Origin: the human T2T-CHM13v2.0 reference genome, Homo sapiens
Strand: one strand, 5' to 3'
Assembly: GCF_009914755.1 (NCBI RefSeq)
Contig: NC_060933.1
DNA length: 64,000 bases
Positions 34,750 to 64,000 of this stretch are shown here, in pieces. Every line of letters begins with the position of its first letter. Position 1 is the first letter of the stretch. Made by a program: the position numbers and the translations under genes. The notes under the pieces were generated by a model, which made no database searches, was not told the DNA's origin, and worked only from the letters and a program-made list of their open reading frames with translations.

Positions 34750-36060
34750 CATTCCATTACATTCGGATTCATTCTATTCAACTCCCTTACTCTCCATTAC
34801 ATTCCATTCCATTCGGGTTGTTCCATTCCATTCCATTCCATTCCACTCCATTCCATTGCACTCGGGTTGATTCCATTCCATTCCATTCCATTCCATTCCA
34901 TTCCATTCCATTCCGGAAGATTCCATTCCATTGCATTCCATTCCATTCCATTCCCCTGCACTCGCGTTGATTCCATTCCATTCCATTCTATTCCATTCCA
35001 TTCCCTTCCTTTTCGGTCCATTCCATTCCATTCCATTCCATTCCATTCTATTCGGGTTAATTCCATTCCATTCCATTCCATTCCATTACAATCGAGTTGA
35101 TTCCATTCCATTCCATTCCATTCCAGTCTTTTCCATTCCATTCCTCTCGGGTTGATTCCATTCTATTAGTTTCCATTCCATTCCATTCCCTTCAATTCCA
35201 CTCTGGTTGATTCCATTCCTTTCCATTCCACTCGAATACATTCCCTCCTATTCCACTCGGAACGATTCCATTCCATTCCATTCCATTCCATTCCATTCCA
35301 TTCCATTCCATTTCGTTCCATTCCATTCTATTCCGTATCATTCCATTCCATTCAATTCCCTTCCATTCCATTCCATTCCATTCCATTTCGTTCCATTCCA
35401 TTCTATTCCGTATCATTCCATTCCATTCCATTCCATTCCATTCCATTCAATTCCATTCCGTTCCATTCCATTCCATTACATTCGGATTCATTCTATTCAA
35501 CTCCCTTACTCTCCATTACATTCCATTCCATTCGGGTTGTTCCATTCCATTCCATTCCATTCCACTCCATTCCATTGCACTCGGGTTGATTCCATTCCAT
35601 TCCATTCCATTCCATTCCATTCCATTCCGGAAGATTCCATTCCATTGCATTCCATTCCATTCCATTCCCCTGCACTCGCGTTGTTTCCATTCCATTCCAT
35701 TCTATTCCATTCCATTCCCTTCCTTTTCTTTCCATTCCATTCCATTCCATTCCATTCCATTCGGGTTAATTCCATTCCATTCCATTCCATTCCATTACAA
35801 TCGAGTTGATTCCATTCCATTCCATTCCATTCCACTCTTTTCCATTCCATTCCTCTCGGGTTGATTCCATTCTATTAGTTTCCATTCCATTCCATTCCCT
35901 TCCATTCCACTCTGGTTGATTCCATTCCTTTCCATTCCACTCGAATACATTCCCTCCTATTCCACTCGGAACGATTCCATTCCATTCCATTCCATTCCAT
36001 TCCATTCCATTCCATTCCATTCCATTTCGTTCCATTCCATTCTATTCCGTATCATTCCAT
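34750..36060 (+). repeat. Tandem duplication of about 710-720 bp
   Basis: Private variants ATTCGGATTCATT 34761/35480 and CCTCTCGGG 35143/35852. Confidence 0.82.
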
Positions 36061-42000: not shown

Positions 42001-43369
42001 CATTCCATTCCATTCCATTCCATTCCATTCCGGATGATTCCATTGCATTGCATTCCATTCCATTCCATTCCCCTGCACTCGGGTTGATTCCATTCGATTC
42101 CATTGCATTACATTCCGTTCCATTCCGTTCCATTTCATTCTATTCGGGTTAATTCCATTCCATTGCATTCCACTCCATTCCAGTCCTTTCCATTCCATTC
42201 CACTCGGGTTGATTCCATTCTATTCCTTTCCATTCCATTCCATTCCATTGCAATCGAGTTGATTCCATTCGAGTTGAATCCATTCCATTCCATTCCATTC
42301 CATTGCACACGGGTTCATTCCATTCCATTCCATTCCATTCCATTCCATTCCATTCCATTTCATTCCATTCCATTCTATTCCGTACCATTCCATTCCATCC
42401 CATTCCATTCCGTTCCATTCCATGCCATTACACTCGGGTTGATTCCATTCCTTTCCATTCCATTCTTGTTGAATCCATTCCATTCCATTCCATTCCATTC
42501 GAATCCATTCCATTGCACTCGGGTTGATTCCATTCCATTCCATTCCATTCCATTTCATTCCATTCCATTCCATTACATTCGGATTGATTCTATTCAATTC
42601 CCTTACACTCCATTACATTCCATTCCATTCGGGATGTTTCCATTCCATTCCATTCCATTCCACTCCATTCCATTGCATCAGGTTGATGGCATTCCATTCC
42701 ATTCCATTCCATTCCGGATGATTCCATTCCATTGCATTCCATTCCATTCCATTCCCCTGCACTCGGGTTGATTCCATTCCATTCCATTCCATTCCATTCC
42801 ATTCCGTTCCATTCCATTCCATTCCATTCTATTCTGGTTAATTCCATTCCATAACATTCGATTCCATTCCATTCCCTTCCATTCCATTGCAATCGAGTTG
42901 ATTCCATTCCATTCCATTCCATTCCGTTCCGGATGATTCCATTCCATTCCATTCCATTCCATTCCCCTGCAGTCGGGTTGATTCCATTCCATTCCATTCC
43001 ATTCCATTCCATTCCATTCCATTCCATTTCGTTCCATTCCATTCCATTCCATTCTATTCGGGTGAATTCCATTCCATTCCATTCCATTCCATTCCATTCC
43101 ATTCCACTCCATTCCAGTCCTTTCCATTCCATTACACTCGGGTGATTCCATTCTATTCCTTTCCATTCCATTCCATTCCATTGCAATCGAGTTGATTCCA
43201 TTGCTTTGCATTCCATTCCATTCCATTCCATTCCGGATGATTCCATTCCGTTGCATTCCTTTCCATTACATTCCCCTGCACTCGGGTTTATTCCATTCCA
43301 TTCCATTCCATTACATTCGATTCCATTCCATTCCCCTGCACTCGCGTTGATTCCATTCCATTCCATTCC

Positions 43370-44150
43370 ATTCCATTCCATTCCTTTCCGTTCCATTCCA
43401 TTCCATTCCATTCCATTCCGTTCCGTTCCATTCCATTCCATTCCATTCTATTCGCGTTAATTCCATTCCATTCCATTCGATTGCAATCGAGTTGATTCCA
43501 TTCCATTCCATTCCATTCCATTCCATTCCATTCCTTTCCATTCCATTACGGATGATTCTATTCCATTGCATTCCATTCCATTCCATTCCCCTGTACTCGG
43601 GTTGATTCCATTGCATTCCATTCCATTCCATTCCCCTGCAGTTGGGTTGATTCCATTCCATTCCATTCCATTCCATTCCATTCCATTCCGTTCCGTTCCG
43701 TTCCGTTCCATTCCATTCCATTCCATTCTATTCGGGTTAATTCCATTCCATTCCATTCCATTCCATTCCATTCCTTTCCGTTCCATTCCATTCCATTCCA
43801 TTCCATTCCGTTCCGTTCCATTCCATTCCATTCCATTCTATTCGCGTTAATTCCATTCCATTCCATTCGATTGCAATCTAGTTGATTCCATTCCATTCCA
43901 TTCCATTCCATTCCATTCCATTCCATTCCATTCCATTCCATTCCATTCCATTACGGATGATTCTATTCCATTGCATTCCATTCCATTCCATTCCCCTGTA
44001 CTCGAGTTGATTCCATTGCATTCCATTCCATTCCATTCCCCTGCAGTCGGGTTGATTCCATTCCATTCCATTCCATTCCATTCCATTGCATTCTGTTCCG
44101 TTCCGTTCCATTCCATTCCATTCCATTCTATTCGGGTTAATTCCATTCCA
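43370..44150 (+). repeat. Tandem duplication of about 390-405 bp
   Basis: Private variants TTCGCGTTAA 43451/43841 and GATGATTCTA 43551/43956. Confidence 0.82.
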
Positions 44151-47100
44151 TTCCATTCCATTCCTTTCCATTCCATTCCAATCGAGTTGATTCCATTCCA
44201 TTCCATTCCATTCCATTCCATTCCATTCCAGTCCTTTCCATTCCATTCCACTCGGGTTGATTCCATTCTATTCGTTTCCATTCCATTCCATTCCCTTCCA
44301 TTCCACTCTGGTTGATTCCATTCCTTTCCATTCCACTCGAATACATTCCCTCCTATTCCACTCGGAACTATTCCATTCCATTCCATTCCATTCCATTCCA
44401 TTCCATTTCGTTCCATTCCATTCTATTCCGTATCATTCCATTCCATTCCATTCCATTCCATTCCATTCCACTCGTGTTGATTCCATTCCTTTCCATTCCA
44501 TTCGGTTTGAAGGCTTTCCATTCCATTCCATTCCATTCCATTCCATTCCATTGTACTCGGGTTGATTCCATTCCATTGCATTCCATTCCATTCCATTCCA
44601 TTCCAATCCATTGCATTCCATTCCATTACATTCGGATTGATTCTATTCAACTCCCTTACTCTCCATTACATTCCATTCCATTCGGGTTGTTCCATTCCAT
44701 TCCATTCCATTCCACTCCATTCCATTGCACTCGGGTTGATTCCATTCCATTCCATTCCATTCCATTCCATTCCGGATGATTCCATTCCACTGCAATCCGT
44801 TCCATTACATTCCCCTGCACTCGCGTTGATTCCATTCCATTCCATTCCATTCCATTCCATTCCGTTCCGTTCCATTCCATTCCATTCCATTCTATTTGGG
44901 TTAATTCCATTCCATTCCATTCGATTGCAATCGAGTTGATTCCCTTCCATTCCATTCCATTCCATTCCATTCCATTCCATTCCATTCCTTTCCATTACAT
45001 TACGGATGATTCCATTCCATTGCATTCCATTCCATTCGATTCCCCTGTACTCGGGTTGATTCCATTCCATTCCATTCCAATCCATGCCATTCCACTCGTA
45101 TTGATTCCATTGTTTCCATTCCATTCAAGTTGAATCCATTCCATTGCATTCCATTCCATTCGATTCCATTCGATTGCACTCGGGTTGATTCCATTCCATT
45201 GCATTCCATTCCATTCCATTCCATTCCATTCCATTCCATTCCATTCCGTTCCATTCCATTCCATTACATTCGGATTGATTCTATTCAATTCCCTTACACT
45301 CCATTACATTCCATTCCTTTCGGGTAGTTTCCATTCCATTCCATTCCATTCCTCTCCATTCCATTGCACTCGCGTTGATTCCATTCCATTGCATTCCATT
45401 CCATACCATTCAATTCCATTCCATTCCATTCCATTACATTACATTCGGATTGATTCTATTCAACTCCCTTACTCTCCATTACATTCGATTCCATTCGGGT
45501 TGTTCCATTCCATTCCATTCCATTCCACTCCATTCCATTGCACTCAGGTTGATTCCATTCAATTCCATTCCATTCCATTCCATTCCATTCCATTCCGGAA
45601 GATTCCATTCCATTGCATTCCATTCCATTCCATTCCCCTGCACTCAGGTTGATTCCATTCCATTCCATTCCATTCCATTCCATTCAATTCCTTTCCGTTC
45701 CATTCCATTCCATTCCATTCCATTCCATTCCATTCCGTTCCGTTCTGTTCCATTCCATTCCATTCCATTCTATTCGGGTTAATTCCATTCCATTCCATTC
45801 GATTGCAATCGAGTTGATTCTATGCCATTCCATTCCATTCCATTCCATTCCATTCCATTCCATGCCTTTCCATTCCATTACGGATGATTCCATTCCATTG
45901 CATTCCATTCCATTCCTTTCCCCTGTACTCGGGTTGATTCCATTCCATTCCATTCCAATCCATGCCATTCCACTCGTGTTGATTCCATTCTTTCCATTCC
46001 ATTCAAGTTGAATCCATTCCATTGCTTTCCATTCCATTCCATTCCCCTGTAGTCGGGTTGATTCCATTCCATTCCTTTCCATTCCATTCCATTCCATTCC
46101 ATTCCGTTCCGTTCCGTTCCGTTCCGTTCCATTCCATTCCATTCCATTCTATTCGGGTTAATTCCATTCCATTCCATTCCATTCCATTCCATTCCATTCC
46201 ATTCCAATCGAGTTGATTCCATTCCATTCCATTCCATTCCATTCCACTCCATTCCAGTCCTTTCCATTCCATTCCACTCGGGTTGATTCCAATGTATTCC
46301 TTTCCATTCCATTCCATTCCATTGCAATCGAGTTGATTCCATTGCTTTGCATTCCATTCCATTCCATTCCATTCCGGATGACTCCATTCCATTGCATTCC
46401 ATTCCATTGCATTCCCCTGCACTCGGGTTGATTCCATTCCGTTCCACTCCATTCCGTTGCATTCCATTCCATTCCATTGTATTCGGGTTAATTCCATTCC
46501 ATTCCATTCCATTCCATTCCATTCCAATCGAGTTGATTCCATTCCATTCCATTCCATTCCATTCCATTCCATTCCAGTCCTTTCCATTGCATTCCACTCG
46601 GGTTGATTCCATTCTATTAGTTTCCATTCCATTCCATTCCCTTCCATTCCACTCTGGTTGATTCCATTCCTTTCCATTCCACTCGAATACATTCCCTCCT
46701 ATTCCACTCGGAACGATTCCATTCCATTTCATTCCATTCCATTCCATTCCATTCCATTCCATTTCGTTCCATTACATTCTATTCCGTATCATTCCATTCC
46801 ATTCCATTCCATTCCATTCCATTCCATTCCATTCCACTCGTGTTGATTCCATTCCTTTCCATTCCATTCGGTTTGAAGGCTTTCCATTCCATTCCATTCC
46901 ATTCCATTCCATTCCATTCCATTGTGCTCGGGTTGATTCCATTCCATTGCATTCCATTCCATTCCATTCCATTCCAATCCGTTGCATTCCATTCCATTAC
47001 ATTCGGATTGATTCTATTCAACTCCCTTACTCTCCATTACATTCCATTCCATTCGGGTTGTTCCATTCCATTCCATTCCATTCCACTCCATTCCATTGCA

Positions 47101-50100
47101 CTCGGGTTGATTCCATTCCATTCCATTCCATTCCATTCCATTCCATTCCGGATGATTCCATTCCATTGCATTCCGTTCCATTACATTCCCCTGCACTCGC
47201 GTTGATTCCATTCCATTCCATTCCATTCCATTCCATTCAATTCCATTCCATTACAATTCGTTCCATTCCATTCTATTCCATACCATTCCATTCCATTCCA
47301 TACCATTCCATTCCATTCCATTCCATTCCATTCCATTCCATTCCTTTCCATTCCGTTCCATTCCATTCCATTCCATTCTATTCGGGTTTATTCCATTCCA
47401 TTCCATTCCATTCCATTCCATTCCATTCCAATCTATTCCATTCCATTGCAATCGAGTTGAATCCATTGCATTTCATTCCATTCCATTCCATTCCATTCCA
47501 TTCCATTGCAATCGAGTTGAATCCATTGCATTTCATTCCATTCCATTCCATTCCATTCCATTCCGGAAGATTCCATTCCATTGCATTCCATTCCATTCCA
47601 TTCCCCTGCACTCGCGATGATTCCTTTCCATTCCATTCCATTCCATTCCATTCCATTCCGTTCCGTTCCGTTCCATTTCATTCCATTCCATTCCATTCCA
47701 TTCCGTTCCGTTCCATTCCATTCCATTCCATTCTATTCGGGTTAATTCCATTCCATTCCATTCGATTGCAATCGAGTTGATTCCATTCCATTCCATTCCA
47801 TTCCATTCCATTCCATTCCATTCCAATCGAGTTGATTGCATTCCATTCCATTCCATTCCATTCCACTCCATTCCAGTCCTTTCCATTCCATTCCACTCGG
47901 GTTGATTCCATTCTATTCCTTTCCATTCCATTCCATTCCATTGCAATCGAGTTGATTCAATTGCTTTGCATTCCATTCCATTCCATTCCATTCCGGATGA
48001 TTCCATTCCATTGCATTCCATTCCATTCCATTCCCCTGCACTCGGGTTGATTCCATTCCATTCCACTCCATTCCGTTCCATTCCATTCCATTCCATTGTA
48101 TTCGGGTTAATTCCATTCCATGCCATTCCATTCCATTCCATTCCATTCCATTCCATTCTATTACAATCGAGTTGATTCCATTCCATTCCATTCCATTCCA
48201 TTCCATTCCATTCCAGTCCTTTCCATTCCATTCCACTCGGGTTGATTCCATTCTATTAGTTTCCATTCCATTCCATTCCCTTCCATTCCACTCTGGTTGA
48301 TTCCATTCCTTTCCATTCCAATCGAATAAATTCCCTCCTATTCCACTCGGATCGATTCCATTCCATTCCATTCCATTCCATTCCATTCCATTCCATTCCA
48401 TTCCATTTCGTTCCATTCCATTCTATTCCGTACCATTCCATTCCATTCCATTCCTTTCCATTCCATTCCATTCCATTCCACTCTTGTTGATTCCATTCCT
48501 TTCCATTCCATTCGGTTTGAAGGCATTCCATTCCATTCAATTCCATTCCATTCCATTCCATTCCATTCCATTCCATTCCATTCCATTGTACTCGGGTTGA
48601 TTCCATTCCATTCCATTCCATTCCATTCCATTCCATTCCATTCCATTCCGTTGCATTCCATTCCATTACATTCGGACTGATTCTATTCAACTCCCTTACT
48701 CTCCATTACATTCCATTCCATTCGGGTTGTTCCATTCCATTCCATTCCATTCCACTCCATTCCATTGCACTCGGGTTGATTCCATTCCATTCCATTCCAT
48801 ACCATTCCATTCCATTCCATTCCATTCCATTCCGTTCCATTCCGTTCCATTCCATTCCATTCCATTCTATTCGGGTTAATTCCATTCCATTCCATTCCAT
48901 TCCATTCTATTCCATTCCATTGCAATCGAGTTGAATCCATTGCATTTCATTCCATTCCATTCCATTCCATTCCATTCCGGAAGATTCCATTCCATTGCAT
49001 TCCATACCATTCCATTGCCCTGCACTCGCGTTGATTCCATTCCATTCCATTCCATTCCATTCCATTCCATTCCATTCCATTCCTTTCCGTTCCATTCCAT
49101 TCCATTCCATTCCATTCCAATCCATTCCATTCCGTTCCGTTCCATTCCATTCCATTCCATTCCATTCTATTCGGGTTAATTCCATTCCATTCCGTTCGAT
49201 TGCAATCGAGTTGATTCCATTCCATTCCATTCCATTCCATTCCATTCCTTTCCATTCCATTACGGATAATTCCATTCCATTGCATTCCATTCCATTCCAT
49301 TCCTCTGTACTCGGGTTGATTCCATTCCATTCCATTCCAATCCATGCCATTCCACTCGTGTTGATTCCATTCTTTCCATTTCATTCAAGTTGAATCCATT
49401 CCTTTGCATTCCATTCCATTCCATTCCCCTGCAGTCGTGTTGTTTCCATTCCATTCCATTCCATTCCCCTGCTGTCGGGTTGTTTCCATTCCATTCCATT
49501 CCATTCCATTCCATTCCATTCCATTCCATTCCATTCCGTTCCGTTCCATTCCATTCCATTCCATTCTATTCGGTTTAATTCCATTCCATTGCATTCCATT
49601 CCATTCCATTCCATTCCAATCGAGTTGATTCCATTCCATTCCATTCCATTCCACTCCATTCCAGTCCTTTCCATTCCATTCCACTCGGGTTGATTCCAAT
49701 GTATTCCTTTCCATTCCATTCCATTCCATTGCAATCGAGTTGATTCCATTGCTTTGCATTCCATTCCATTCCATTCCATTGCGGATGATTCCATTCCATT
49801 GCATTCCATTCCATTCCATTCCCCTGCACTCGGGTTGATTCCATTCCATTCCACTCCATTCCGTTCCATTCCATTCCATTGCATTGTATTCGGGTTAATT
49901 CCATTCCATTCCATTCCATTCCATTCCAGTCCATTCCATTACAATCGAGTTGATTCCATTCCATTCCATTCCATTCCAGTCCTTTCCATTCCATTCCACT
50001 CGGGTTGATTCCATTCTATTAGTTTCCATTCCATTCCAATCCCTTCCATTCCACTCTGGTTGATTCCATTCCTTTCCATTCCACTCGAATACATTCCCTC

Positions 50101-52814
50101 CTATTCCACTCGGAACGATTCCATTCCATTCCATTCCATTCCATTCCATTCCATTCCATTCCATTTCTTTCCATTGCATTCTATTCCGTGTCCTTCCATT
50201 CCATTCCATTCCATTCCATTCCCCTGCAGTCGGGTTGTTTCCATTCCATTCCATTCCATTCCATTCCATTCCATTCCATTCCATTCCGATCCGTTCCATT
50301 CCATTCCATTCCATTCTATTCGGGTTAATTCCATTCCATTCCATTCCATTCCATTCCATTCCATTCCATTCCATTCCAATCGAGTTGATTCCATTCCATT
50401 CCATTCCATTCCATTCCACTACATTCCAGTCCTTTCCATTCCATTCCACTCGGGTTGATTCCAATGTATTCCTTTCCATTCCATTCCATTCCATTGCAAT
50501 CGAGTTGATTCCATTGCTTTGCATTCCATTCCATTCCTTTCCATTCCGGATGATTCCATTCCATTGCATTCCATTCCATTCCATTCCTCTCCATTCCATT
50601 GCACTCGGGTTGATTCCATTCCATTCCATTCCATTCCATTCCATTCCATTACATTACATTACATTACATTCCGTTCCTTTCTACTCGGGTTGATTCCATT
50701 CCATTGCATTCCATTCCATTCCATTACATTACATTCCATTCCCTTCCATTCCATTCCGTTCCATTCCATTACATTCGGATTGATTCAATTCAACTCCCTT
50801 ACTCTCCATTACATTCCATTCCATTCGGGTTGTTCCATTCCATTCCATTACATTCCACTCCATTCCATTGCGCTCCGGTTGATTCCATTCCATTCCATTC
50901 CATTCCATTCCATTCCATTCCATTCCGGATGATTCCATTCCATTGAATTCCGTCCCATTACATTCCCTTGCACTCGGGTTGATTCCATTCCATTCCATTC
51001 CATTCCATTCGATTCCATTCCATTCCAATTCTTTCCATTCCATTCTATTCCGTACCATTCCATTCCATTCCATACAATTCCATTCCATTCCATTCCACTC
51101 CGTTCCGTTCCTTTCCGTTCTGTTCCGTTCCATTCCATTCCATTCCATTCTATTCGGTTTAATTCCATTCCATTCCATTCCATTCCATTCCATTCTATTC
51201 CATTCCATTGCAATCGAGTTGAATCCATTGCATTCCATTCCATTCCATTCCATTCCATTCCATTCCATTCCATTCCATTCCATTGTACTCGGGTTGATTC
51301 CATTCCATTGCATTCCATTCCATTCCATTCCATTCCGGAAGATTCCATTCCATTGCATTCCATTCCATTCCATTCCCCTTCACTCGCGTTGATTCCATTC
51401 CATTCCATTCTATTCCATTCCATTCCCTTCCTTTCCGTTCCATTCCATTCCATTCCATTCCATTCCCCTGCACTCGCGTTGATTCCATTCCATTCCATTC
51501 TATTCCATTCCATTCCCTTCCTTTCCGTTCCATTCCATTCCATTCCATTCCGTTCCGTTCCATTCCATTCCATTCCATTCTATTCTGGTTAATTCCATTC
51601 CATTCCATTCGATTGCAATCGAGTTGATTCCATTCCATTCCATTCCATTCCATTCCATTCCATTCCATTCCATTCCTTTCCTTTCCATTACGGATGATTC
51701 CATTCCATTGCATTCCATTCCATTCCATTCCCCTGTACTCGGGTTGATTCCATTCTATTCCATTCCAATCCATGCCATTCCACTCGTGTTGATTCCATTC
51801 TTTCCATTCCATTCAAGTTGAATCCATTCCATTGCATTCCATTCCATTCGATTCCATTCGATTGCACTCGGTTTGATTCCATTCCATTGCATTCCATTCC
51901 ATTCCATTCCATTCCATTCCGTTCCATTCCATTCCATTACATTCGGATTGATTCTATTCAATTCCCTTACACTCCATTACATTCCATTCCATTCGGGTAG
52001 TTTCCATTCCATTCCATTCCATTCCTCTCCATTCCATTGCACTCGGGTTGATTCCATTCCATTGCATTCCATTCGATACCATTCAATTCCATTCCGTTCC
52101 ATTCCATTCCATTACATTCGGATTGATTCTATTCAACTCCCTTACACTCCATTACATTCGATTCCATTCGGGTTGTTCCATTCCATTCCATTCCATTCCT
52201 CTCCATTCCATTGCACTCGGGTTGATTCCATTCCATTCCATTCCATTCCGGAAGATTCCATTCCATTGCATTCCATTAAATTCCATTCCCCTGTACTCGC
52301 GTTGATTCCATTCCATTCCATTCCATTCCTTTGCATTCCATTGCATTCCATTGCATTCCATTCCCCTGCACTCAGGTTGATTCCATTCCATTCCATTCCA
52401 TTCCATTCCATTCTATTCACGTTAATTCCATTCCACTCCATTCCATTACATTCCATTGCAATCGACTTGATTCCATTCCATTCCATTCCATTCCATTCCA
52501 TTCCATTCCATTCCCTTCCATTCCACTCTGGTTGATTCCATTCCTTTCCATTCTACTCGATTGCATTCCCTTCTATTCCACTCGGATTGATTCCATTCCA
52601 TTCCGTTCCATTCCATTCCATTTCGTTCCATTCCATTCTATTCCATTCCATTCCATTCCATTCCTTTCCATTCCATTCCGTTCCATTCCATTCCATTCCA
52701 TTCCATTTCTTTGCATTCCATTCTATTCCATACCATTCCATTCCATTCCGTTCCATGCCATTCCACTCGGGTTGATTCCATTGCTTTCCATTCCATTTGG
52801 GTTGAATCCATTCC

Positions 52815-55800
52815 ATTCCATTCCATTCCATTCCATTCCATTCCGTTCCATTCCATTCCATTACATTCGTATTGATTGTATTCAATTCCCTTACACTCCA
52901 TTACATTCCATTCCATTCGGGTTGTTTCCATTCCATTCCATTCCATTCCACTCCATTCCATTGCAGTCGGGTTGATTCCATTCCATTCCATTCCATTCCC
53001 TTCCATTCCATTTCGTTCCATTCCATTCTATTCCATACCATTCCATTCCATTCCATTCCATTCCATTCCATTCCATTCCATTCCATTCCATGCCATTCCA
53101 CTCGGGTTGATTCCTTTCCATTCCATTCCATTCGGGTTGAAACCATTCCATTCCATTCAATTCCATTCCATTTCGGATGATTGCATTCCATTGCCTTCCA
53201 TTCAATTGCATTCCCCTGCACCCGGGTTGATTCCATTCAATTCCATTCCATTCCATTCCGTTCCATTCCATTCCATACCATTCCATTCCATTCCATTCCA
53301 TTCTATTTGGGTTAATTCCATTCCATTCCATTCCATTCCATTCAGTTTCATTGCAATCGGGTTGATTCCATTCCGTTCCATTCCATTGCATTCCATTCCA
53401 TTCCATTCCATTCCATTCCATTCCATTCCATTCAACTCGGGTTGATTCCATTCCTTTCCATTCCATTCGGGGTGAAGCCTTTCCATTCCATTCCATTCCT
53501 TTCGATTCCATTCCATTGCACTCGGGTTGATCCCATTCCTTTGCATTCCATTCCATTCCATTCCATTCCATTCCATTCCATTCCGTTCCATTCAATTCCA
53601 TTACGTTCGGATTGATTCTATTCAATTCCCTTACAATCCACCACATTCCTTTCCATTCGGGTTGTTTCCATTCCTTTCCATTCCATTCAATTCCATTCCA
53701 TTCCATTCCATTCCGTATGATTCCATTCCATTGCATTCTATTCCATTCCATTCCCCTGCACTCGGGTGGATTCCATTCTATTCCATTCCATTCCATTCCA
53801 TTCCATTCCATTCCATTCCATTCCATTGAAATCGAGTTGATTCCATTCCATTCCATTCCATTCAATTCCATTCCATTCCATTCTATTCTGGTTAATTCCA
53901 TTCCATTCCATTCCATTCCCTTCCATTCCATTCCATTCTATTCCATTCCATTCCATTCTATTAGGGTTAATTCCATTCCATTCCATTCCATTCCATTCCA
54001 TTCCATTCCATTCCATTCCATTCCTTTGCAATCGAGTTTATTCCATTCCATTCCATTCCATTCCATTCCATTCAATTCCATTGAACTCGGGTTGATTCCA
54101 TTCCATTCCATGCCATTCCATTTCATTCCAATCCATTGCCTTCCATTCCATTCCATTCCTCTGCACTCGGGTTGATTCCATTCCTTTCCATTCCATTCGA
54201 TTCCATTCCATGCCATTCCACTCGGGTTGATTCCATTACTTTCCATTCCATTCGAGTTGAATCCATTCCATTCGATTCCATTCCATTCGATTCCATTCCA
54301 TTGCTCACGGGTTCATTCCATTCCATTCCATTCCATTCCATTCTATTCCATTTCATTCCATTTCGTTCCATTCCATTCTCTTCCGTACCATTCCATTCCA
54401 TTCCATTCCACTCCATTCCATGCCATTCCACTCGGGTTTATTCCATTCCTTTCCATTCCATTCGGGTTGAATTCATTCCATTCCATTCCATTCCATTCCA
54501 TTCCATTCTATTCCATTGCACTCGGGTTGATTCCATTCCATTCCATTACATTCCACTCCATTCCATTGCACTCGGGTTGATTCCATTCCTTTCCATTCCA
54601 TTCCAGTTGAACCCATTCCATTCTATTCCATTCCATTCCATTCCATTCCATTTCATTCCTTTGCACACGGGTTCATTCCATTCCATTCCATTCCATTCCA
54701 TTCCATTCCATTTCGTTCCATTCCATTCTATTCCTTACCATTCCATTCCATTCCATTCCCTTCCATGCCATTTCACTCGGGTTTATTCCATTCCTTTCCA
54801 TTCCATTCGGGTTGAATCCATTCCATTCCATTCCATTCCATTCCATTCCATTCCATTCCATTCCATTGAACTCGGGTTGATTCCATTCCATTCCATGCCA
54901 TTCCATTTCATTCCATTCCATTCCATTCCGTTCCATTCCATTCCATTCCTTTCCGTTCAATTCCATTACATTCGGATTGATTCTTTTTAATTCCCTTACA
55001 CTCCATTACATTCCATTCCATTCGGGTAGTTTCCATTCCATTCCATTCCATTCCTCTGTATTCTATTGCACTCGGGTTGATTGATTCCATTCCATTGCAT
55101 TCCATTCCATTCAGGATGATTCCATTCCATTGCATTCCATTCCATTCCATTCCCCTGCACTCGTGTTGATTCCATTCCTTTCCATTCCATTCCATTCCGT
55201 TCCATTCCATTCCATTACATTCGTACTGATTGTACTCAATTCCCTTACACTCCATTACATTCCATTCCATTCGGGTTGTTTCCATTCCATTACATTCCAT
55301 TCTACTCCATTCCATTGCACTCAGGTTGATTCCATTCCATTCCATTCCATTCCATTCCATTTCGTTCCATTCCATTCTATTCCGTACCATTCCATTCCAT
55401 TCCATTCCATTCCATGCCATTCCACTCAGGTTTATTACATTCCTTTCCATTCCATTCGGGTTGAATCCATTCCATTCCATTCCATTCCATTCCATTCCAT
55501 TCCTTTGCACTCGGGTTGATTCCATTCCATTCCCTGCCATTCCATTTCATTCCATTCCATTCCATTCCATTCCATTCCATTCCATTCCATTCCATTCCGT
55601 TCCATTCCATTCCATTACATTCGGATTGATTGTATTCAATTCCCTTACACTCCATTACATTCCATTCCATTCGGGTTGTTTCCGTTCCATTACATTCCAT
55701 TCCACTCCATTCCATTGCACTCAGGTTGATTCCATTCCATTCCATTCCATTCCATTCCATTCCATTTCGTTCCATTCCATTCTATTCCGTACCATTCCAT

Positions 55801-56707
55801 TCCATTCCATTCCATTCCATTCCATGCCATTCCACTCGGGTTGATTCCATTCCTTTCCATTCCATTCGGATTGAATCCATTCCATTCCATTCCATTGCAT
55901 TCCGTTCCATTCCATTCCCCTGCAATCGGGTGGATTCCATTCTATTCCATTCCATTCCATTCATTCCATTCCATTCCATTCCATTTCGTTCCATTCCATT
56001 CTATTCCCTACCTTTCCATTCCATTCCATTCCATTCCATTCCATTCCATGCCATGCCATTCCACTCGAGTTGATTCCATTCCTTTCCATTCCATTCTAGT
56101 TGAATCCATTCCATTGCATTCCATTCCATTCGATTCCATTCAATTGCACACGGGTTCATTCCATTCCATTCCATTCCATTCCATTCCATTCCATTCCATT
56201 CCATTTCGTTCCATTCCATTCTATTCCGTACCATTCCCTTCCATTCCATTCCATTCCACTCCATTCCATGCCATTCCACTCGGGTTTATTCCATTCCTTT
56301 CCATTCCATTCGGGTTGAATCCATTCTATTCGGGTTGAATCCATTCCATTCCATTCCATTCCATTCCATTCCATTCCATGCCATTCCACTCGGGTTGATT
56401 CCATTCCTTTCCATTCCATTCGAGTTGAACCCATTCCATTCCATTCCATTCCATTCCATTCCATTCCATTCCATTCCATTGCTCACGGGTTCATTCCATC
56501 CAATTCCATTCCATTCCATTCCATTCCATTCCATTTCGTTCCATTCCATTCTACTCCGTACCATTGCATTCCATTCCATTCCCTTCCATGCCATTTCACT
56601 CGGGTTTATTCCTTTCCTTTCCATTCTATTCGGGTTGAATCCATTCCATTCCATTCCATTGCATTCCATTCCATTCCATTCCCCTGCAATCGGGTGGATT
56701 CCATTCT
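52815..56707 (+). repeat. Tandem duplication of about 3.8-3.9 kb, copy 1
   Basis: Markers CGTATTGATTGT about 52868/56761, GGTGAAGCC 53471/57359, TTGATTGATT 55077/58890, CCTACC about 56007/59830. Confidence 0.88.
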
Positions 56708-59700
56708 ATTCCATTCCATTCCATTCCATTCCATTCCGTTCCATTCCATTCCATTACATTCGTATTGATTGTATTCAATTCCCTTACACTCCATTACATT
56801 CCATTCCATTCGGGTTGTTTCCATTCCATTCCATTCCATTCCACTCCATTCCATTGCAGTCGGGTTGATTCCATTCCATTCCATTCCATTCCCTTCCATT
56901 CCATTTCGTTCCATTCCATTCTATTCCATACCATTCCATTCCATTCCATTCCATTCCATTCCATTCCATTCCATGCCATTCCACTCGGGTTGATTCCTTT
57001 CCATTCCATTCCATTCGGGTTGAAACCATTCCATTCCATTCAATTCCATTCCATTTCGGATGATTGCATTCCATTGCCTTCCATTCAATTGCATTCCCCT
57101 GCACCCGGGTTGATTCCATTCAATTCCATTCCATTCCATTCCGTTCCATTCCATTCCATACCATTCCATTCCATTCCATTCCATTCCATTCTATTTGGGT
57201 TAATTCCATTCCATTCCATTCCATTCCATTCAGTTTCATTGCAATCGGGTTGATTCCATTCCGTTCCATTCCATTGCATTCCATTCCATTCCATTCCATT
57301 CCATTCCATTCCATTCCATTCAACTCGGGTTGATTCCATTCCTTTCCATTCCATTCGGGGTGAAGCCTTTCCATTCCATTCCTTTCCTTTCGATTCCATT
57401 CCATTGCACTCGGGTTGATCCCATTCCTTTGCATTCCATTCCATTCCATTCCATTCCATTCCATTCCGTTCCATTCAATTCCATTACATTCGGATTGATT
57501 CTATTCAATTCCCTTACAATCCATCACATTCCTTTCCATTCGGGTTGTTTCCATTCCTTTCCATTCCATTCAATTCCATTCCATTCCATTCCATTCCGTA
57601 TGATTCCATTCCATTGCATTCTATTCCATTCCATTCCCCTGCACTCGGGTGGATTCCATTCTATTCCATTCCATTCCATTCCATTCCATTCCATTCCATT
57701 CCATTCCATTGAAATCGAGTTGATTCCATTCCATTCCATTCCATTCAATTCCATTCCATTCCATTCTATTCGGGTTAATTCCATTCCATTCCATTCCATT
57801 CCCTTCCATTCCATTCCATTCTATTCCATTCCATTCCATTCTATTAGGGTTAATTCCATTCCATTCCATTCCATTCCATTCCATTCCATTCCATTCCATT
57901 CCTTTGCAATCGAGTTTATTCCATTCCATTCCATTCCATTCCATTCCATTCAATTCCATTGAACTCGGGTTGATTCCATTCCATTCCATGCCATTCCATT
58001 TCATTCCAATCCATTGCCTTCCATTCCATTCCATTCCTCTGCACTCGGGTTGATTCCATTCCTTTCCATTCCATTCGATTCCATTCCATGCCATTCCACT
58101 CGGGTTGATTCCATTTCTTTCCATTCCATTCGAGTTGAATCCATTCCATTCGATTCCATTCCATTCGATTCCATTCCATTGCTCACGGGTTCATTCCATT
58201 CCATTCCATTCCATTCCATTCTATTCCATTTCATTCCATTTCGTTCCATTCCATTCTCTTCCGTACCATTCCATTCCATTCCATTGCACTCCATTCCATG
58301 CCATTCCACTCGGGTTTATTCCATTCCTTTCCATTCCATTCGGGTTGAATTCATTCCATTCCATTCCATTCCATTCTATTCCATTGCACTCGGGTTGATT
58401 CCATTCCATTCCATTCCATTCCACTCCATTCCATTGCACTCGGGTTGATTCCATTCCTTTCCATTCCATTCCAGTTGAACCCATTCCATTCCATTCCATT
58501 CCATTCCATTCCATTCCATTCCATTTCGTTCCATTCCATTCTATTCCTTACCATTCCATTCCATTCCATTCCCTTCCATGCCATTTCACTCGGGTTTATT
58601 CCATTCCTTTCCATTCCATTCGGGTTGAATCCATTCCATTCCATTCCATTCCATTCCATTCCATTCCATTCCATTCCATTGAACTCGGGTTGATTCCATT
58701 CCATTCCATGCCATTCCATTTCATTCCATTCCATTCCATTCCGTTCCATTCCATTCCATTCCTTTCCATTCAATTCCATTACATTCGGATTGATTCTTTT
58801 TAATTCCCTTACACTCCATTACATTCCATTCCATTCGGGTAGTTTCCATTCCATTCCATTCCATTCCTCTGTATTCTATTGCACTCGGGTTGATTGATTC
58901 CATTCCATTGCATTCCATTCCATTCAGGATGATTCCATTCCATTGCATTCCATTCCATTCCATTCCCCTGCACTCGTGTTGATTCCATTCCTTTCCATTC
59001 CATTCCATTCCGTTCCATTCCATTCCATTACATTCGTACTGATTGTACTCAATTCCCTTACACTCCATTACATTCCATTCCATTCGGGTTGTTTCCATTC
59101 CATTACATTCCATTCTACTCCATTCCATTGCACTCAGGTTGATTCCATTCCATTCCATTCCATTCCATTCCATTTCGTTCCATTCCATTCTATTCCGTAC
59201 CATTCCATTCCATTCCATTCCATTCCATGCCATTCCACTCAGGTTTATTACATTCCTTTCCATTCCATTCGGGTTGAATCCATTCCATTCCATTCCATTC
59301 CATTCCATTCCATTCCATTCCTTTGCACTCGGGTTGATTCCATTCCATTCCCTGCCATTCCATTTCATTCCATTCCATTCCATTCCATTCCATTCCATTC
59401 CATTCCATTCCGTTCCATTCCATTCCATTACATTCGGATTGATTGTATTCAATTCCCTTACACTCCATTACATTCCATTCCATTCGGGTTGTTTCCGTTC
59501 CATTACATTCCATTCCACTCCATTCCATTGCACTCAGGTTGATTCCATTCCATTCCATTCCATTCCATTCCATTCCATTCCATTCCATTTCGTTCCATTC
59601 CATTCTATTCCGTACCATTCCATTCCATTCCATTCCATTCCATTCCATGCCATTCCACTCGGGTTGATTCCATTCCTTTCCATTCCATTCGGGTTGAATC

Positions 59701-60165
59701 CATTCCATTCCATTCCATTGCATTCCGTTCCATTCCATTCCCCTGCAATCGGGTGGATTCCATTCTATTCCATTCCATGCCATTCATTCCATTCCATTCC
59801 ATTCCATTTCGTTCCATTCCATTCTATTCCCTACCTTTCCATTCCATTCCATTCCATTCCATTCCATTCCATGCCATGCCATTCCACTCGAGTTGATTCC
59901 ATTCCTTTCCATTCCATTCTAGTTGAATCCATTCCATTGCATTCCATTCCATTCGATTCCATTCAATTGCACACGGGTTCATTCCATTCCATTCCATTCC
60001 ATTCCATTCCATTCCATTCCATTCCATTTCGTTCCATTCCATTCCATTCCATTCCATTCCCTTCCATTCCATTCCATTCCACTCCATTCCATGCCATTCC
60101 ACTCGGGTTTATTCCATTCCTTTCCATTCCATTCGGGTTGAATCCATTCTATTCGGGTTGAATCC
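56708..60165 (+). repeat. Tandem duplication of about 3.8-3.9 kb, copy 2 (ends just before the inversion)
   Basis: Same markers at offsets of 3893 falling to 3813-3823. Diverges from copy 1 after the CGGGTTGAATCCATTCTATTCGGGTTGAAT doublet at about 60134-60163. Confidence 0.85.
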
Positions 60166-60341
60166 AATCCATTCCATTCCATTCCATTCCATTCCATTCC
60201 ATTCCATTCCATTGCACTAGGTTTGATTCCATTCTGCTGCATTCCATTCCATTCCATTCCGTTCCATTCCATTCCTTTACATTCGGATTGATTGTATTCA
60301 ATTCCCTTACACTCCATTACATTCCATTCCATTCGGGTTGT

Positions 60342-60383
60342 TTCCATTCCATTCCATTCCGTGTGCAATGGAATGGAATGGAA
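60342..60383. other. Inversion breakpoint / palindrome centre
   Basis: TTCCATTCCATTCCATT (60342-60358), CCGTGTGC loop (60359-60366), AATGGAATGGAATGGAA (60367-60383): perfect 17-bp arms with an 8-nt spacer. Confidence 0.93.
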
Positions 60384-63300
60384 TGGAATGGAATGGAATG
60401 GAATGGGTTCAACTAGAATGGAATGGAAAGGAATGGAATCAACCCGAGTGGAATGGCATGGAATGGAATGGAATGGAATGGAATGGAAAGCAATGGAATG
60501 AAATGGAATGGAAGGGAATGGATTGAAATGGAATGGAATGGAATGGAATCAACCCGAGTGCAATGTAATGGAATTGAATGGAATGGAATGGAATGCAATG
60601 GAATGAATTCAACCCGAATGGAATGGAAAGGAATGGAATAAACCCGAGTGGAATGGCATGGAATGGAGTGGAATGGAATGGAATGGAATACTACGGAAGA
60701 GAATGGAATGGAACGAAATGGAATGGAATGGAATGGAATGGAATGGAATGGAATGAACAAGTGAGCAATTGAATGGAATCGAATGGAATAGAATGGAATG
60801 GAATGGATTCAACTCGAATGGAATGGAAAGGAATGGAATCAACCCGAGTGGAATGGCATGGAATGGAATGGAATGGAATGGAACGGAATGGAATGGAATC
60901 AACTCGATTGCAAAGGAATGTAATGGAATGGAATGGAACGGAATTAACGCAAATAGAATGGAATGGAAAGGAATGGAACGGAATGGAATGGAAAGAAATG
61001 GAATGGAATCAATCTGAGTGCAGGGGAATGCAATGGAATGGAATGCAATGGAATGGAATGGAATGGAATGCAATGGAATCACCTCGATTGCAATGGGATG
61101 GAATGGAATGGAATGGAATGGAAGGGAATGGAATGGAATGGAATTAACCTGAACAGAATGGAATGGAATGGTATGGAATGGAATGGAATGGAATGGAATG
61201 GAATGCAATGGAATGGAATCAATCAACCCGAGTGCAATAGAATGCAGTGGAATGGAATGGAATGGAATGGAATGGAATGGAATGGAATGGAATGAAATGG
61301 AATGGCAGGGAATGGAATGGAATCAACCCGAGTGCAAAGGAATGGAATGGAATGGAATGGAATGGAATGGATTCAACCCGAATGGAATGGAAAGGAATGG
61401 AATAAACCTGAGTGGAATCGCATGGAATGGAATGGAATGGAATGGAATGGAATGGTACGGAATAGAATGGAATGGAAAGTAATGGAATGGAATGGAATGG
61501 AATGGAATGGAATCAACCTGAGTGCAATGGAATGGAGTGGAATGGAATGTAATGGAATGGAAACAACCCGAATGTAATGGAATGTAATGGAGTGTAAGGG
61601 AATTGAATACAATCAATCCGAATGTAATGGAATGGAATGGAACGGAATGGAATGGAATGGAATGCAGTGGAATGGAATCAAACCTAGTGCAATGGAATGG
61701 AATGGAATGGAATGGAATGAAATGGAATGGAATGGAATGGAATGGAATGGAATGGATTGGATTCAACCCAAATGGAATGGAAAGCAATGGAATCAACCCG
61801 AGTGGAATGGCATGGAATGGAATGGAATGGAATGGAATGGAATGGAATGGTACAGAATAGAATGGAATGGAATGAAATGGAATGGAATGGAATGGAATGG
61901 AATGGAATGGAACGGAATGGAATGGAATCAACTCGATTGCAATGGAATGTAATGGAATGGAATGGAATGGAATTAACGCGAATAGAATGGAATGGAATGT
62001 AATGGAACGGAATGGAATGGAATGGGATGGAATGGAATCAATCTGAGTGCAGGGGAATGGAATGGAATGGAATGCAATGGAATGGAATGGAATGGAATGG
62101 AATGCAATGGAATCAACTAGATTGCAATGGGATGGAATGGAATGGAATGGAATGGAAGGGAATGGAATGGAATGGAATTAACCTGAACAGAATGGAATGG
62201 AATGGAATGGAACGGAATGGAAGGGAATGGAATGGAATGGAATTAAGCTGAAGAGAATGGAATGGAATGGAATGGAACGGAATGGAATGGAATGGAATGG
62301 AATGGAATGCAATGGAATGGGATCAACCCGAGTGCAGGGGAATGGAATGGAATGGAATGCAATGGAATGGAATCAATCAACCCGAGTGCAATAGAATGCA
62401 GTGGAATGGAATGGAATGGAATGGAAAGTACCCGAATGGAAAGGAATGTAATGGAGTGTAAGGGAATTAAAAAGAATCAATCCGAATGTAATGGAATGGA
62501 AGGGAACGGAATGGAATGGAATGGAATGGAATGGAATGGAATGGAATGGAATGAAATGGAATGGCATGGAATGGAATGGAATCAACCTGAGTTCAATGGA
62601 ATGGAATGGAATGGAATGGAATGGATTCAACCCGAATGGAATGGAAAGGAATGGAATAAACCCGAGTGAAATGGCATGGAAGGGAATGGAATGGAATGGA
62701 ATGGTAAGGAATAGAATGGAATGGAACGAAATGGAATGGAATGGAATGGAATGGAATGGAATGGAATGGAATGGAATGAACCCGTGTGCAATGGAATGGA
62801 ATGGAATGGAATGGAATGGAATGGAATGGAATGGGTTCAACTAGAATGGAATGGAAAGGAATGGAATCAACCCGAGTGGAATGGCATGGAATGGAATGGA
62901 AAGGAATGGAATGGAATGGAATGGAATGGAATGGAATGGAATGAAATGGAATGGAAGGGAATGGATTGAAATGGAATGGAATGGAATGGAATCAACCCGA
63001 GTGCAATGTAATGGAATTGAATGGAATGGAATGGAATGGAATGGAATGAATTCAACCCGAATGGAATGGAAAGGAATGGAATAAACCCGAGTGGAATGGC
63101 ATGGAATGGATTGGAATGGAATGGAATGGAATACTACGGAAGAGAATGGAATGGAACGAAATGGAATGGAATGGAATGGAATGGAATGGAATGAACACGT
63201 GAGCAATGGAATGGAATCGAATGGAATGGAATGGAATGGAATGGATTCAACTCGAATGGAATGGAAAGGAATGGAATCAACCCGAGTGGAATGGCATGGA

Positions 63301-63710
63301 ATGGAATGGAATGCAATGGAATGGAATGGAATGGAATGGAATCAACTCGATTGCAAAGGAATGTAATGGAATGGAATGGAACGGAATTAACGCAAATAGA
63401 ATGGAATGGAAAGGAATGGAAAGGAATGGAATGGAAAGGAATGGAATGGAATCAATCTGAGTGCAGGGGAATGGAATGGAATGGAGTGCAATGGAATGGA
63501 AAGGAATGGAATGCAATGGAATCACCTCGATTGCAATGGGATGGAATGGAATGGAATGGAATGGAAGGGAATGGAATGGAATGGAATTAACCTGAACAGA
63601 ATGGAATGGAATGGTATGGAATGGAATGGAATGGAATGGAATGGAATGCAATGGAATGGAATCAATCAACGCGAGTGCAATAGAATGCAGTGGAATGGAA
63701 TGGAATGGAA
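60361..63710 (-). repeat. Duplication at about 2.43 kb offset inside the inverted block (60361-61260 vs 62784-63710)
   Basis: GTGTGCAATG 60361/62784, AACTAG 60411/62839, CTACGGAAGAG 60691/63134. Confidence 0.82.
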
Positions 63711-64000
63711 TGGAAAGTACCCGAATGGAATGGAATGGAATGGAGTGTAAGGGAATTAAAAAGACTCAATCCGAATGTAATGGAATGGAATTGAAAGGAA
63801 AGGAATGGAATGGAATGGAATGGAATGGAATGGAATGAAATGGAATGCCATAGAATGGAATGGAATCAACCCGAGCGCAATGGAATGGAATGGAATGGAA
63901 TGGATTCAACCCGAATGGAATGGAAAGGAATGGAATAAACCCGAGTGAAATGGCATGGAAGGGAATGGAATGGAATGGAATGGTACGGAGTAGAATGGAA
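60361..64000 (-). repeat. Inverted HSat3 block, G-rich (GGAAT)n strand on +
   Basis: From 60361 the + strand reads (GGAAT)n with CAACCCGAGT words, the reverse complement of the left array. Runs to the window end. Confidence 0.97.

What the first reader, a model, noticed from the sequence alone, without database searches (positions are those of the whole stretch)
60342..60383. Strand-inversion junction: CC microhomology and a fold-back centre
Seen: ...CATTCC|GTGTGCAATGG. The intact donor at 62777-62795 reads TGAACCC-GTGTGCAATGG, so the join uses a 2-bp CC overlap with no insertion. It gives 17-bp perfect arms around an 8-nt loop, and kilobases of quasi-complementary sequence on both sides. Established: inversions occur in HSat3 arrays, and stress-induced SatIII RNA is mainly G-rich. 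Inference: the site can extrude a cruciform, and read-through RNA would fold into long dsRNA. G-rich transcription would diverge away from this point on both sides, which makes it a candidate bidirectional origin or fragile site.
Basis: partly seen in the sequence, partly recalled or inferred. Interest (0 to 1): 0.75.

Follow-up and report, generated by a model that had tools for sequence, protein, structure and literature searches.

The report
Copied inversion junction in chr9 satellite
This is a real point where the satellite-3 repeat of chromosome 9 flips strand, but it is one of about 85 near-identical copies of a single old junction that duplication has spread through the array, a kind of feature already described and showing no sign of a special function.

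Summary
The strand switch at window 60360|60361 is real. It is the only switch in the window. The 2-bp CC overlap with no inserted bases is confirmed against paralogous intact copies of both parents. The perfect hairpin arms are 19 bp with a 9-nt loop, not 17 and 8. Neither feature is unusual: 13.8% of random joins of the two blocks give an overlap of 2 bp or more, and 9.9% give a stem of 19 bp or more.

The junction is not unique. Its 30-mer occurs 78 times exactly and 85 times with up to 2 mismatches. All copies lie on chr9 between 52.3 and 76.4 Mb, in both orientations, with 0 hits in the controls. A twin 10.65 Mb away is 99.92% identical over 6.5 kb.

Three other junction families are amplified in the same way, with 28, 20 and 11 copies. 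The window's junction is the left edge of a 36.1-kb inverted block.

This is the published mosaic inversion structure of the chr9 HSat3 array. I read it as one founder junction that array duplication copied passively. Folding potential is large but follows trivially from the strand switch. No HSE-like motif lies nearby, and the junction core is conserved, which argues against fragility. No data here support a role as origin, promoter or fragile site.

The parts
1..60360 (+). Left block. The + strand carries (ATTCC)n-type HSat3 of the HSat3B5 kind.
   Evidence: Strand profile. The HSat3B5 example 24-mer from Altemose 2014 Table 1 (seen) occurs 47 times, all on the + strand between 2037 and 60335. 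Internal periods are about 9.49, 11.7 and 3.81 kb.
54001..60360 (+). Left-proximal sub-variant domain. It is the same sub-variant as the right block, in the opposite orientation. Its left bound is known only to 2-kb bins.
   Evidence: 27-57% of its informative 24-mers recur as reverse complements in 60361-64000. The figure is 7.6-21.5% for the 26 bins of 1-52000 and 17.5% for 52001-54000. The period is about 3813 bp.
60205..60360 (+). Last 156 bp of the left arm. This part of the left flank is shared by nearly all sampled family members. In the window copy, homology to the 3813-bp-upstream repeat ends here.
   Evidence: The segment is 96.8% identical to the inverted copy at 61544-61699 and 97-98% identical to about a dozen same-strand modules.
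60342..60360 (.). Left arm of the perfect 19-bp inverted repeat.
60359..60360 (.). CC shared by both parental sequences. This is the 2-bp microhomology at the join.
   Evidence: The chance rate is 13.8%.
60361..60369 (.). 9-nt loop (GTGTGCAAT), the first bases of the right parent.
60370..60388 (.). Right arm of the perfect 19-bp inverted repeat.
60346..60375 (+). Junction 30-mer used as the family marker.
   Evidence: 78 exact copies and 85 with up to 2 mismatches, all on chr9 52.34-76.36 Mb, with controls at 0.
60361..64000 (+). Right block. The + strand carries (GGAAT)n-type HSat3 with a period of about 2423-2443 bp. It is the first 3.6 kb of a 36.1-kb inverted block that ends outside the window, at window-equivalent position about 96466.
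   Evidence: Probes and junction D at chr9:71086466.
62777..62795 (+). Paralogous intact copy of the right parent (GAACCC before GTGTGCAATGG). It is a paralogue, not the actual donor.
56717..56837 (+). Example of an intact paralogue of the left parent. It continues ATTCCACTCC... past the breakpoint.

Best explanation
The site is one copy of an old head-to-head inversion junction inside the HSat3 (HSat3B5-type) array of chromosome 9q12.

Inferred origin: the junction arose once. A break or a replication template switch joined the C-rich strand of one repeat module to the G-rich strand of another, at a 2-bp CC overlap.

Shown here: the junction, together with some flanking repeat, was then carried along passively as the array grew by tandem and segmental duplication at scales from about 10 kb to several Mb. 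Some of those duplications were inverted. The assembly now holds about 85 copies in both orientations.

Unequal exchange or conversion between repeat units has since reshuffled the flanks. As a result most copies share only a few hundred bp round the core.

The window copy is the left edge of a 36.1-kb inverted block. It has a practically identical twin 10.65 Mb away, made by the recent multi-megabase duplication of this genome's 9qh+ array.

The hairpin and dsRNA potential is an automatic by-product of joining opposite strands of a pentameric satellite. Nothing here indicates a dedicated function.
For: Single origin and amplification:
- The 30-mer is exact 78 times (31 forward, 47 reverse). 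With up to 2 mismatches it occurs 85 times (36 and 49). All copies are on chr9 52.34-76.36 Mb. The reversed-pattern controls give 0.
- The 80-mer matches 40 of 40 scored full-length candidates at 98-100%; 85 candidates were found.
- All 28 other copies examined have the same breakpoint in both parents and a near-identical stretch of about 165 bp left and about 40 bp right.

Duplication as the carrier:
- Junction spacings recur, for example 39248 twice, 21189 and 21199, and 117700 and 117725.
- The order and orientation of A, B and C junctions at 52.34-54.58 Mb are repeated at 61.08-63.39 Mb. Those at 57.07-60.69 Mb are repeated at 67.69-71.35 Mb.
- The twin at chr9:60.398 Mb is 99.92% identical over 6,500 bp, with 0 mismatches and one gap. 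It has the same 36.1-kb distance to a D junction.
- Nurk et al. report a recent multi-Mb tandem HSat3 duplication on chr9 of CHM13 (PMC9186530, passages).

Other junction families behave the same way: B has 28, D has 20 and C has 11 exact copies, all on chr9.

Flank reshuffling:
- In 210 pairs of 21 copies, homology extends a median of 200 bp left and 800 bp right.
- In the window copy, the left flank switches at about 60211 to a 100%-identical copy of the unit 3813 bp upstream.

Known class:
- More than 200 inversion breakpoints are reported in the chr9 HSat3B5 array (10.1101/2021.07.12.452052, passages).
- Hundreds of strand switches are reported in CEN09 HSat3, and their number correlates with array length at r=0.90 (10.64898/2026.07.22.740206, passages).
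Against: - Only one assembly was searched. Presence in other people or in raw reads was not tested.
- Only 30 of the 78 exact copies were looked at with flanks: the window, 8 at +-1.5 kb, 20 at +-5 kb and 1 at -3/+3.5 kb. The sample is not random. It consists of the 20 lowest coordinates, the 8 best search hits and one chosen twin.
- Short shared flanks (median 200 and 800 bp) could also be read as a small cassette that moves by conversion, or as re-use of a hotspot, rather than passive copying.
- The mechanism of the founding event cannot be told. A 2-bp overlap is expected by chance in 13.8% of joins. In a periodic array, a fold-back and a two-break inversion both predict that the left arm matches the right flank at some fixed phase. 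Here that phase is about 1.18 kb.
- No functional data were available, so absence of function is not shown.
Confidence: 0.87

Rival explanations
1. The junction is a functional or structurally active element: a cruciform-extruding centre that acts as a bidirectional start point of G-rich SatIII transcription or of replication, or as a fragile site, and a source of long dsRNA.
For: - Strong folding potential: ssDNA -38.3 kcal/mol at z -9.6, and 800-nt RNA -517 kcal/mol at z -29, against -56.5 kcal/mol for a same-strand control.
- G-rich strands do point away from the junction on both sides.
- With about 85 copies, any such effect would be multiplied.
Against: - A stem of 19 bp or more arises in 9.9% of random head-to-head joins of these blocks.
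- Beyond the 19-bp stem, the arms are only 72-81% complementary.
- From recalled literature on inverted Alu repeats (not checked here), arms that diverged do not destabilise DNA much.
- The core 30-mer is exact in 78 of 85 copies, with no central deletions. That is not expected of a tip that is often cleaved.
- No HSE-like GAAnnTTCnnGAA lies within 8 kb left or 3.6 kb right, although 31 lie further left.
- Divergent G-rich transcription and read-through across this junction exclude each other unless the C-rich strand is also transcribed (passage).
- There is no Rfam match in 58000-64000.
Confidence: 0.06
2. The same junction forms again and again, or a small junction cassette spreads actively. 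For example, the hairpin could promote repeated fold-back template switches, or gene conversion could move the cassette. Under this view the copies are not simple descendants carried by duplication.
For: - Flank homology between copies is short: median 200 bp left and 800 bp right in 210 pairs.
- Both orientations are common, 36 and 49.
- One copy (L021, chr9:55.14 Mb) has arms 93.2% alike over 1.3 kb with about a 90-bp offset, as if one arm had been copied from the other.
Against: - The breakpoint is identical to the base in both parents in all 29 copies aligned.
- Multi-marker collinearity of A, B and C junctions across Mb-scale duplicates shows carriage by large duplications, as does the 99.92% twin.
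- Sharp ends of homology are what unequal exchange between repeat units gives in any satellite. The window copy itself shows one at about 60211.
Confidence: 0.05
3. The junction is an assembly artefact, such as a chimeric join or a mis-traversed graph, in this hard-to-assemble array.
For: - The chr9 HSat3 array was among the most complex parts of the assembly graph (passages).
- The twin copies are nearly identical, so the placement of any one copy is hard to verify.
Against: - There are 85 copies with diverged flanks over 24 Mb. One chimeric read cannot produce that.
- Strand switches in this array are reported in hundreds of independent assemblies (passage).
- As early as 2014, 1,738 Sanger reads matching both strands of HSat2,3 were set aside as possible inversion breakpoints (PMC4022460 passage).
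Confidence: 0.02

Closest known systems
Mosaic inversion structure (strand switches) of the chr9 HSat3B5 array in T2T-CHM13. Sources: Altemose et al., preprint 10.1101/2021.07.12.452052; Nurk et al., PMC9186530.
   Same: Same array, same genome, same kind of feature: a switch of satellite strand within one array. More than 200 such breakpoints are reported (passage). The window's junction is presumably among those counted.
   Different: The passages I read give counts and tracks, not base-level junctions. Here the junctions fall into a few sequence-identical families: A with 78/85 copies, B with 28, D with 20 and C with 11. I did not see the supplements (Tables S6 and S7), which may list them.
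Population survey of strand switches in CEN09 HSat3 (preprint 10.64898/2026.07.22.740206).
   Same: It reports hundreds of switches per array, with the number correlating with array length (r=0.90), spread over the whole array (passage).
   Different: [quoted passage not shown] The copies found here share one breakpoint to the base. This says most switches are inherited copies of a few founder events rather than separate events, which would itself explain the correlation with length.
Fold-back inversions and inverted duplications with microhomology (replication template switching such as FoSTeS/MMBIR, or end joining). This comparison rests on recalled general knowledge.
   Same: Head-to-head join, 2-bp overlap, no insertion, and the same repeat sub-variant on both sides in opposite orientation.
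   Different: The founding event cannot be reconstructed. Over kilobases the arms are at the satellite's background identity of about 80%. A periodic array mimics the expected arm-to-flank match.
Fragile long palindromes and closely spaced inverted repeats, such as PATRRs and inverted Alu pairs. This comparison rests on recalled general knowledge.
   Same: A short spacer (9 nt) and a perfect central stem.
   Different: The perfect stem is only 19 bp. The longer arms are 72-81% alike, the sequence is not AT-rich, and the centre is conserved in 78 of 85 copies.

Membership tests
HSat3 (subfamily HSat3B5) of chr9q12 | Pentameric CATTC/GGAAT-based satellite carrying subfamily-specific words. The example 24-mer is in Altemose 2014 Table 1. 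| tested here: met
   The 24-mer seen occurs 47 times in the window, against 0 expected. The last occurrence is at 60312-60335, 25 bp left of the junction. All 47 are in the left block. The right block has none at 0 mismatches. Its assignment rests on 24-mer sharing with the left-proximal domain and on the chr9 position given by the hub.
Intra-array satellite strand switch (inversion breakpoint) as counted by Altemose et al. | The satellite strand changes within one array, with no other sequence class in between. | tested here: met
   The change is ATTCC-type to GGAAT-type at 60360|60361, with no intervening non-satellite bases.
Amplified junction family (one founder event) | Many copies with the same base-level breakpoint and shared flanking variants. 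| tested here: met
   78 exact and 85 near-exact copies. 29 of 29 aligned copies have an identical breakpoint.
Fold-back inversion (inverted duplication by template switch) | The left arm is the reverse complement of sequence just right of the junction, at an identity above the array background, with a short single-copy spacer. | tested here: inconclusive
   In 6 of the 20 other +-5-kb copies (L014, L015, L018, L023, L026, L028), the left arm aligns from its first base to the right flank starting 1.05-1.2 kb away, at 90-93%. In the window copy, 156 bp align at 1184 bp with 96.8% identity. Off-register matches of 91-99% are also seen, and the repeat period of 2.4 kb makes such a phase match expected for any inversion.
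Cruciform-prone or fragile long palindrome | Long arms (hundreds of bp) of high identity with little or no spacer. | tested here: not met
   The perfect arms are 19 bp. The longer arms are 299 nt at 81% and 335 nt at 72%.
HSF1-responsive SatIII transcription start region | An HSE-like array of inverted nGAAn units near the site. The consensus is recalled. HSE-like sequences in HSat3 are mentioned in the PMC10505914 passage. | tested here: not met
   GAAnnTTCnnGAA occurs 31 times, all between 2151 and 52258 on the minus strand. None lies in 52259-64000. Actual start sites cannot be tested with these tools.

The most novel reading that the evidence does not exclude
A few founder junctions, each amplified 11 to 85 times, divide the 9q12 SatIII locus into more than a hundred alternating blocks of tens to hundreds of kb.

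Every A or C copy is a point that G-rich, stress-induced transcription must leave in both directions. Every tail-to-tail copy (B, D and others) is a point where it converges. Read-through at those convergent points would give long hairpin dsRNA.

The mosaic would then shape how much SatIII RNA and dsRNA a given 9qh haplotype makes under stress. The chr9-specific junction 30-mers would be simple read-count markers of 9qh size and structure in any short-read data set.
Probability: 0.12. Interest if true: 0.6.

Novelty: already known. Interest (0 to 1): 0.27.

Why it matters
As a single site it matters little. It is one of more than 200 reported strand switches in this array, and one of about 85 copies of the same junction.

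The useful point is the family structure. At least 137 switches in this assembly (78 + 28 + 20 + 11 exact copies) come from only four base-level junctions. The 'hundreds of inversions' of 9q12 are therefore mostly inherited copies, not separate events.

That gives a simple reason why the number of switches tracks array length. It also supplies chr9-specific k-mer markers for tracing how 9qh expands. In addition, it shows which junction type, the tail-to-tail partners and not this one, could yield hairpin RNA from G-rich SatIII transcription.

Tried and rejected
I replaced it with k-mer diagonals.
- I asked for +-5 kb round all 77 other exact copies. The first 20 came. Flank statistics therefore rest on 30 of 78 copies.
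- I tested the idea that the two sides form a long palindrome of high identity. They do not: about 80% over 3.6 kb, the same as for any left-block register.
- I tried to separate a fold-back from a two-break inversion using arm-to-flank alignments in 21 copies. The result is not decisive.
- I guessed that the tail-to-tail partner lay midway to the next A copy, at about 71.112 Mb. That was wrong: the 5 kb fetched there are all ATTCC-strand. Twenty 150-bp probes then found it at chr9:71086466.
- A generic pattern for clean tail-to-tail joins found only 7 sites, 2 on chr7 and 5 on chr9. Such joins mostly lie in less regular sequence, and no full census was possible.
- The listing for the head-to-head pattern was cut after 100 rows of 524. 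In the part listed (52.34-55.31 Mb), 14 of 19 distinct sites are type A, 4 are type C and 1 is another type.
- Rfam gave no match in 58000-64000.
- I did not try dating the family or testing other human or ape genomes. No such genomes are on hand.

Full report
**What is at the site**

The window is HSat3 satellite throughout. A count of GGAAT against ATTCC in 500-bp steps shows a single change of strand. The + strand is ATTCC-type from 1 to about 60360 and GGAAT-type from there to 64000.

The sequence reads ...GGGTTGTTTCCATTCCATTCCATTCC|GTGTGCAATGGAATGG..., with the join between 60360 and 60361. The HSat3B5 example 24-mer of Altemose 2014 (table seen) occurs 47 times on the + strand of the left block. 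The last occurrence is 25 bp from the join.

The right side of the join starts exactly where other copies of the same module have GAACCC in front. That holds for 4 of 4 other copies in the window: one forward at 62784 and three reverse at 42302, 56143 and 59966.

The left side ends where 16 of 16 same-strand paralogues, and one inverted paralogue, go on with ATTC[C/T].

The perfect arms are 19 bp (60342-60360 and 60370-60388) round a 9-nt loop, not 17 and 8. The pentamer repeat gives three more registers of equal length. Longer arms are imperfect: 299 nt at 81%, 335 nt at 72%, and 79-81% over the 3.6 kb available on the right. That level is reached against every register of the left block, so it is the satellite's background.

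In simulated random joins of the two blocks, 13.8% of 200,000 have an overlap of 2 bp or more. A perfect stem of 19 bp or more with a loop of 3-12 nt appears in 9.9% of 3,000. The strand switch is real. The overlap and the stem are unremarkable consequences of it.

**Unique or amplified?**

Amplified. The junction 30-mer (window 60346-60375) occurs 78 times exactly in the window's genome, 31 forward and 47 reverse. With up to two mismatches it occurs 85 times, 36 forward and 49 reverse. All copies are on chr9 between 52.34 and 76.36 Mb. The reversed-pattern controls give none. An 80-mer across the join matches 40 of 40 scored full-length candidates at 98-100%; 85 candidates were found.

The reverse complement of a head-to-head join is again head-to-head. 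So all copies are switches of the same sense, ATTCC-type to GGAAT-type.

**How the copies relate**

I obtained flanks for 29 other copies:
- 8 at +-1.5 kb;
- the 20 lowest-coordinate copies at +-5 kb;
- one chosen twin.

All 29 copies aligned (the window and 28 others) have the same breakpoint and a near-identical stretch of about 165 bp to the left and about 40 bp to the right.

Against the window copy, the right flank stays at 90% or more for the first three 250-bp bins in 20 of 28 copies. Nine of these also hold for most of the 3.5 kb. The left flank falls to background after the first 250-bp bin in all but one copy, L020 at 54.93 Mb. L020 is 97.7% identical over 8.7 kb.

Over 210 pairs of 21 copies, homology (at least 88% in 200-bp bins) reaches a median of 200 bp left and 800 bp right.

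In the window copy, the left flank changes at about 60211 into a 100%-identical copy of the unit 3813 bp upstream. That is a local exchange of the kind that reshuffles flanks in satellites.

**Duplication as the carrier**

Distances between neighbouring copies recur, for example 39248 twice, 21189 and 21199, and 117700 and 117725.

I also plotted two further junction families: B, tail-to-tail, found 3.4 kb from a copy in L011, and C, a second head-to-head type. With these markers, the order and orientation at 52.34-54.58 Mb are repeated at 61.08-63.39 Mb, an offset of about 8.74 Mb. Those at 57.07-60.69 Mb are repeated at 67.69-71.35 Mb, an offset of about 10.62-10.65 Mb.

The window's copy pairs with one at chr9:60,397,854. 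Over 6,500 bp the two differ by one gap and no mismatch, 99.92% identity.

**The block to the right**

Twenty 150-bp probes to the right of the window placed the next switch in one probe. It is a tail-to-tail join...GGAATAAACCC|ATTCCGTTCC..., at chr9:71,086,466, which is 36,106 bp from the window's join. Its 30-mer (family D) occurs 20 times, all on chr9. One of these lies at the same 36.1-kb distance from the twin copy.

The window's junction is thus the left edge of a 36.1-kb inverted block.

The four families together give 78 + 28 + 20 + 11 = 137 exact junction copies.

In the listed part of a generic search for clean head-to-head joins (52.34-55.31 Mb; 100 of 524 rows shown), 14 of 19 distinct sites are family A, 4 are family C and 1 is another type.

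**Local context**

The 6 kb left of the join (54-60.36 kb) shares 27-57% of its informative 24-mers, as reverse complements, with the right block. The 26 bins of 1-52 kb share 7.6-21.5%, and the bin 52-54 kb shares 17.5%. So the same sub-variant lies on both sides in opposite orientation.

In 6 of the 20 other copies with 5-kb flanks, the left arm aligns from its first base to the right flank starting 1.05-1.2 kb from the join, at 90-93%. In the window copy, 156 bp align at 1184 bp with 96.8% identity.

This could be the trace of a fold-back. But the right block repeats every 2.4 kb, so any inversion would show such a phase match. Off-register matches of 91-99% also occur. I cannot tell a fold-back from a two-break inversion.

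**Structure and function claims**

The fold potential is large:
- 110 nt of single-stranded DNA: -38.3 kcal/mol, z -9.6;
- 800 nt of RNA across the join: -517 kcal/mol, z -29;
- an 800-nt same-strand control: -56.5 kcal/mol, z +7.9.

Any strand switch in this satellite would do the same.

But RNA that crosses this join would then have to begin as the C-rich strand. A review states that HSat3 transcription is unidirectional, giving GGAAU RNA (PMC10505914, passage). G-rich read-through would instead cross the tail-to-tail joins.

An HSE-like GAAnnTTCnnGAA (consensus recalled) occurs 31 times in the window, against 0.8 expected. All are between 2151 and 52258, and none lies in 52259-64000.

The core is letter-perfect in 78 of 85 copies, and no central deletions are seen. 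That speaks against frequent breakage at the hairpin tip.

Rfam gives nothing in 58000-64000. No expression, replication or break data could be consulted.

**Comparison with what is known**

- Altemose et al. report that the chr9 HSat3B5 array holds over 200 inversion breakpoints (preprint 10.1101/2021.07.12.452052, passages).
- Nurk et al. mention a mosaic inversion structure in HSat arrays.
- A 2026 preprint finds hundreds of strand switches in CEN09 HSat3 across assemblies. Their number correlates with array length (r=0.90), and the authors read them as stochastic by-products of expansion (10.64898/2026.07.22.740206, passages).
- In 2014, reads matching both strands were already set aside as possible inversion breakpoints (PMC4022460, passage).

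The feature is therefore of a known kind and is presumably among those already counted.

Four searches of the paper library addressed this: 'HSat3' + 'strand switches' (2 papers), 'HSat3' + 'inversion breakpoints' (15), 'HSat3B5' (4) and 'HSat3' + '9q12' + 'inversions' (3). In the passages I read from them I did not see the base-level grouping of the switches into a few amplified families. I did not see any supplements, so I do not claim it is unpublished.

**Verdict**

This is a real, correctly described inversion junction of an already described class. It is one of about 85 copies of one founder join, carried by duplication. No evidence points to a special role. Interest is low to modest. 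The family structure of the switches is the only part that adds to what I found in print.

Noticed in passing
window 2151-52258 (minus strand): The trimeric HSE-like word GAATCTTCCGGAA (one copy reads GAACCTTCCGGAA) recurs 31 times, about one per 1.7 kb. It is confined to the part of the left block with the 9.5/11.7-kb periodicity. It is absent from 52259-64000, where the 3.8-kb and 2.4-kb sub-variants lie. It may mark which HSat3 sub-variants can bind HSF1.
   Followed up: partly
window about 52000-54000: There is a same-strand change of sub-variant in the left block. Sharing of 24-mers with the inverted right block rises from about 9-12% to 52%, and the period changes from 9.49/11.7 kb to 3.81 kb. 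The exact boundary was not located.
   Followed up: no
L021 (chr9:55139775-55149774): This family-A copy shares only about 30 bp of the usual right flank. Its two arms are 93.2% alike over about 1.3 kb with about a 90-bp offset. It is a much more symmetric palindrome than the other copies, as if one arm had been copied onto the other.
   Followed up: partly
L011 stored 8361-8390 (chr9:52.958 Mb) and chr9 52.93-52.98 Mb: The tail-to-tail junction family B (...CCCGAGTGCA|TTCCATTGC...) has 28 exact copies. Here B and A alternate at 17.8 and 3.4 kb inside a 21.2-kb tandem duplicate.
   Followed up: partly
chr7:58746830-58746866 and chr7:59010650-59010686 (listing): Two clean tail-to-tail HSat3-type joins on chromosome 7 are reverse complements of each other in the spacer and lie 264 kb apart. 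They may be the two ends of one inverted structure.
   Followed up: no
window 59900-60211 and 56077-56388: A 312-bp stretch is 100% identical to the unit 3813 bp upstream and ends abruptly 150 bp before the junction. It is shared with L020 but not with most family members. It marks a recent local exchange next to the junction.
   Followed up: partly
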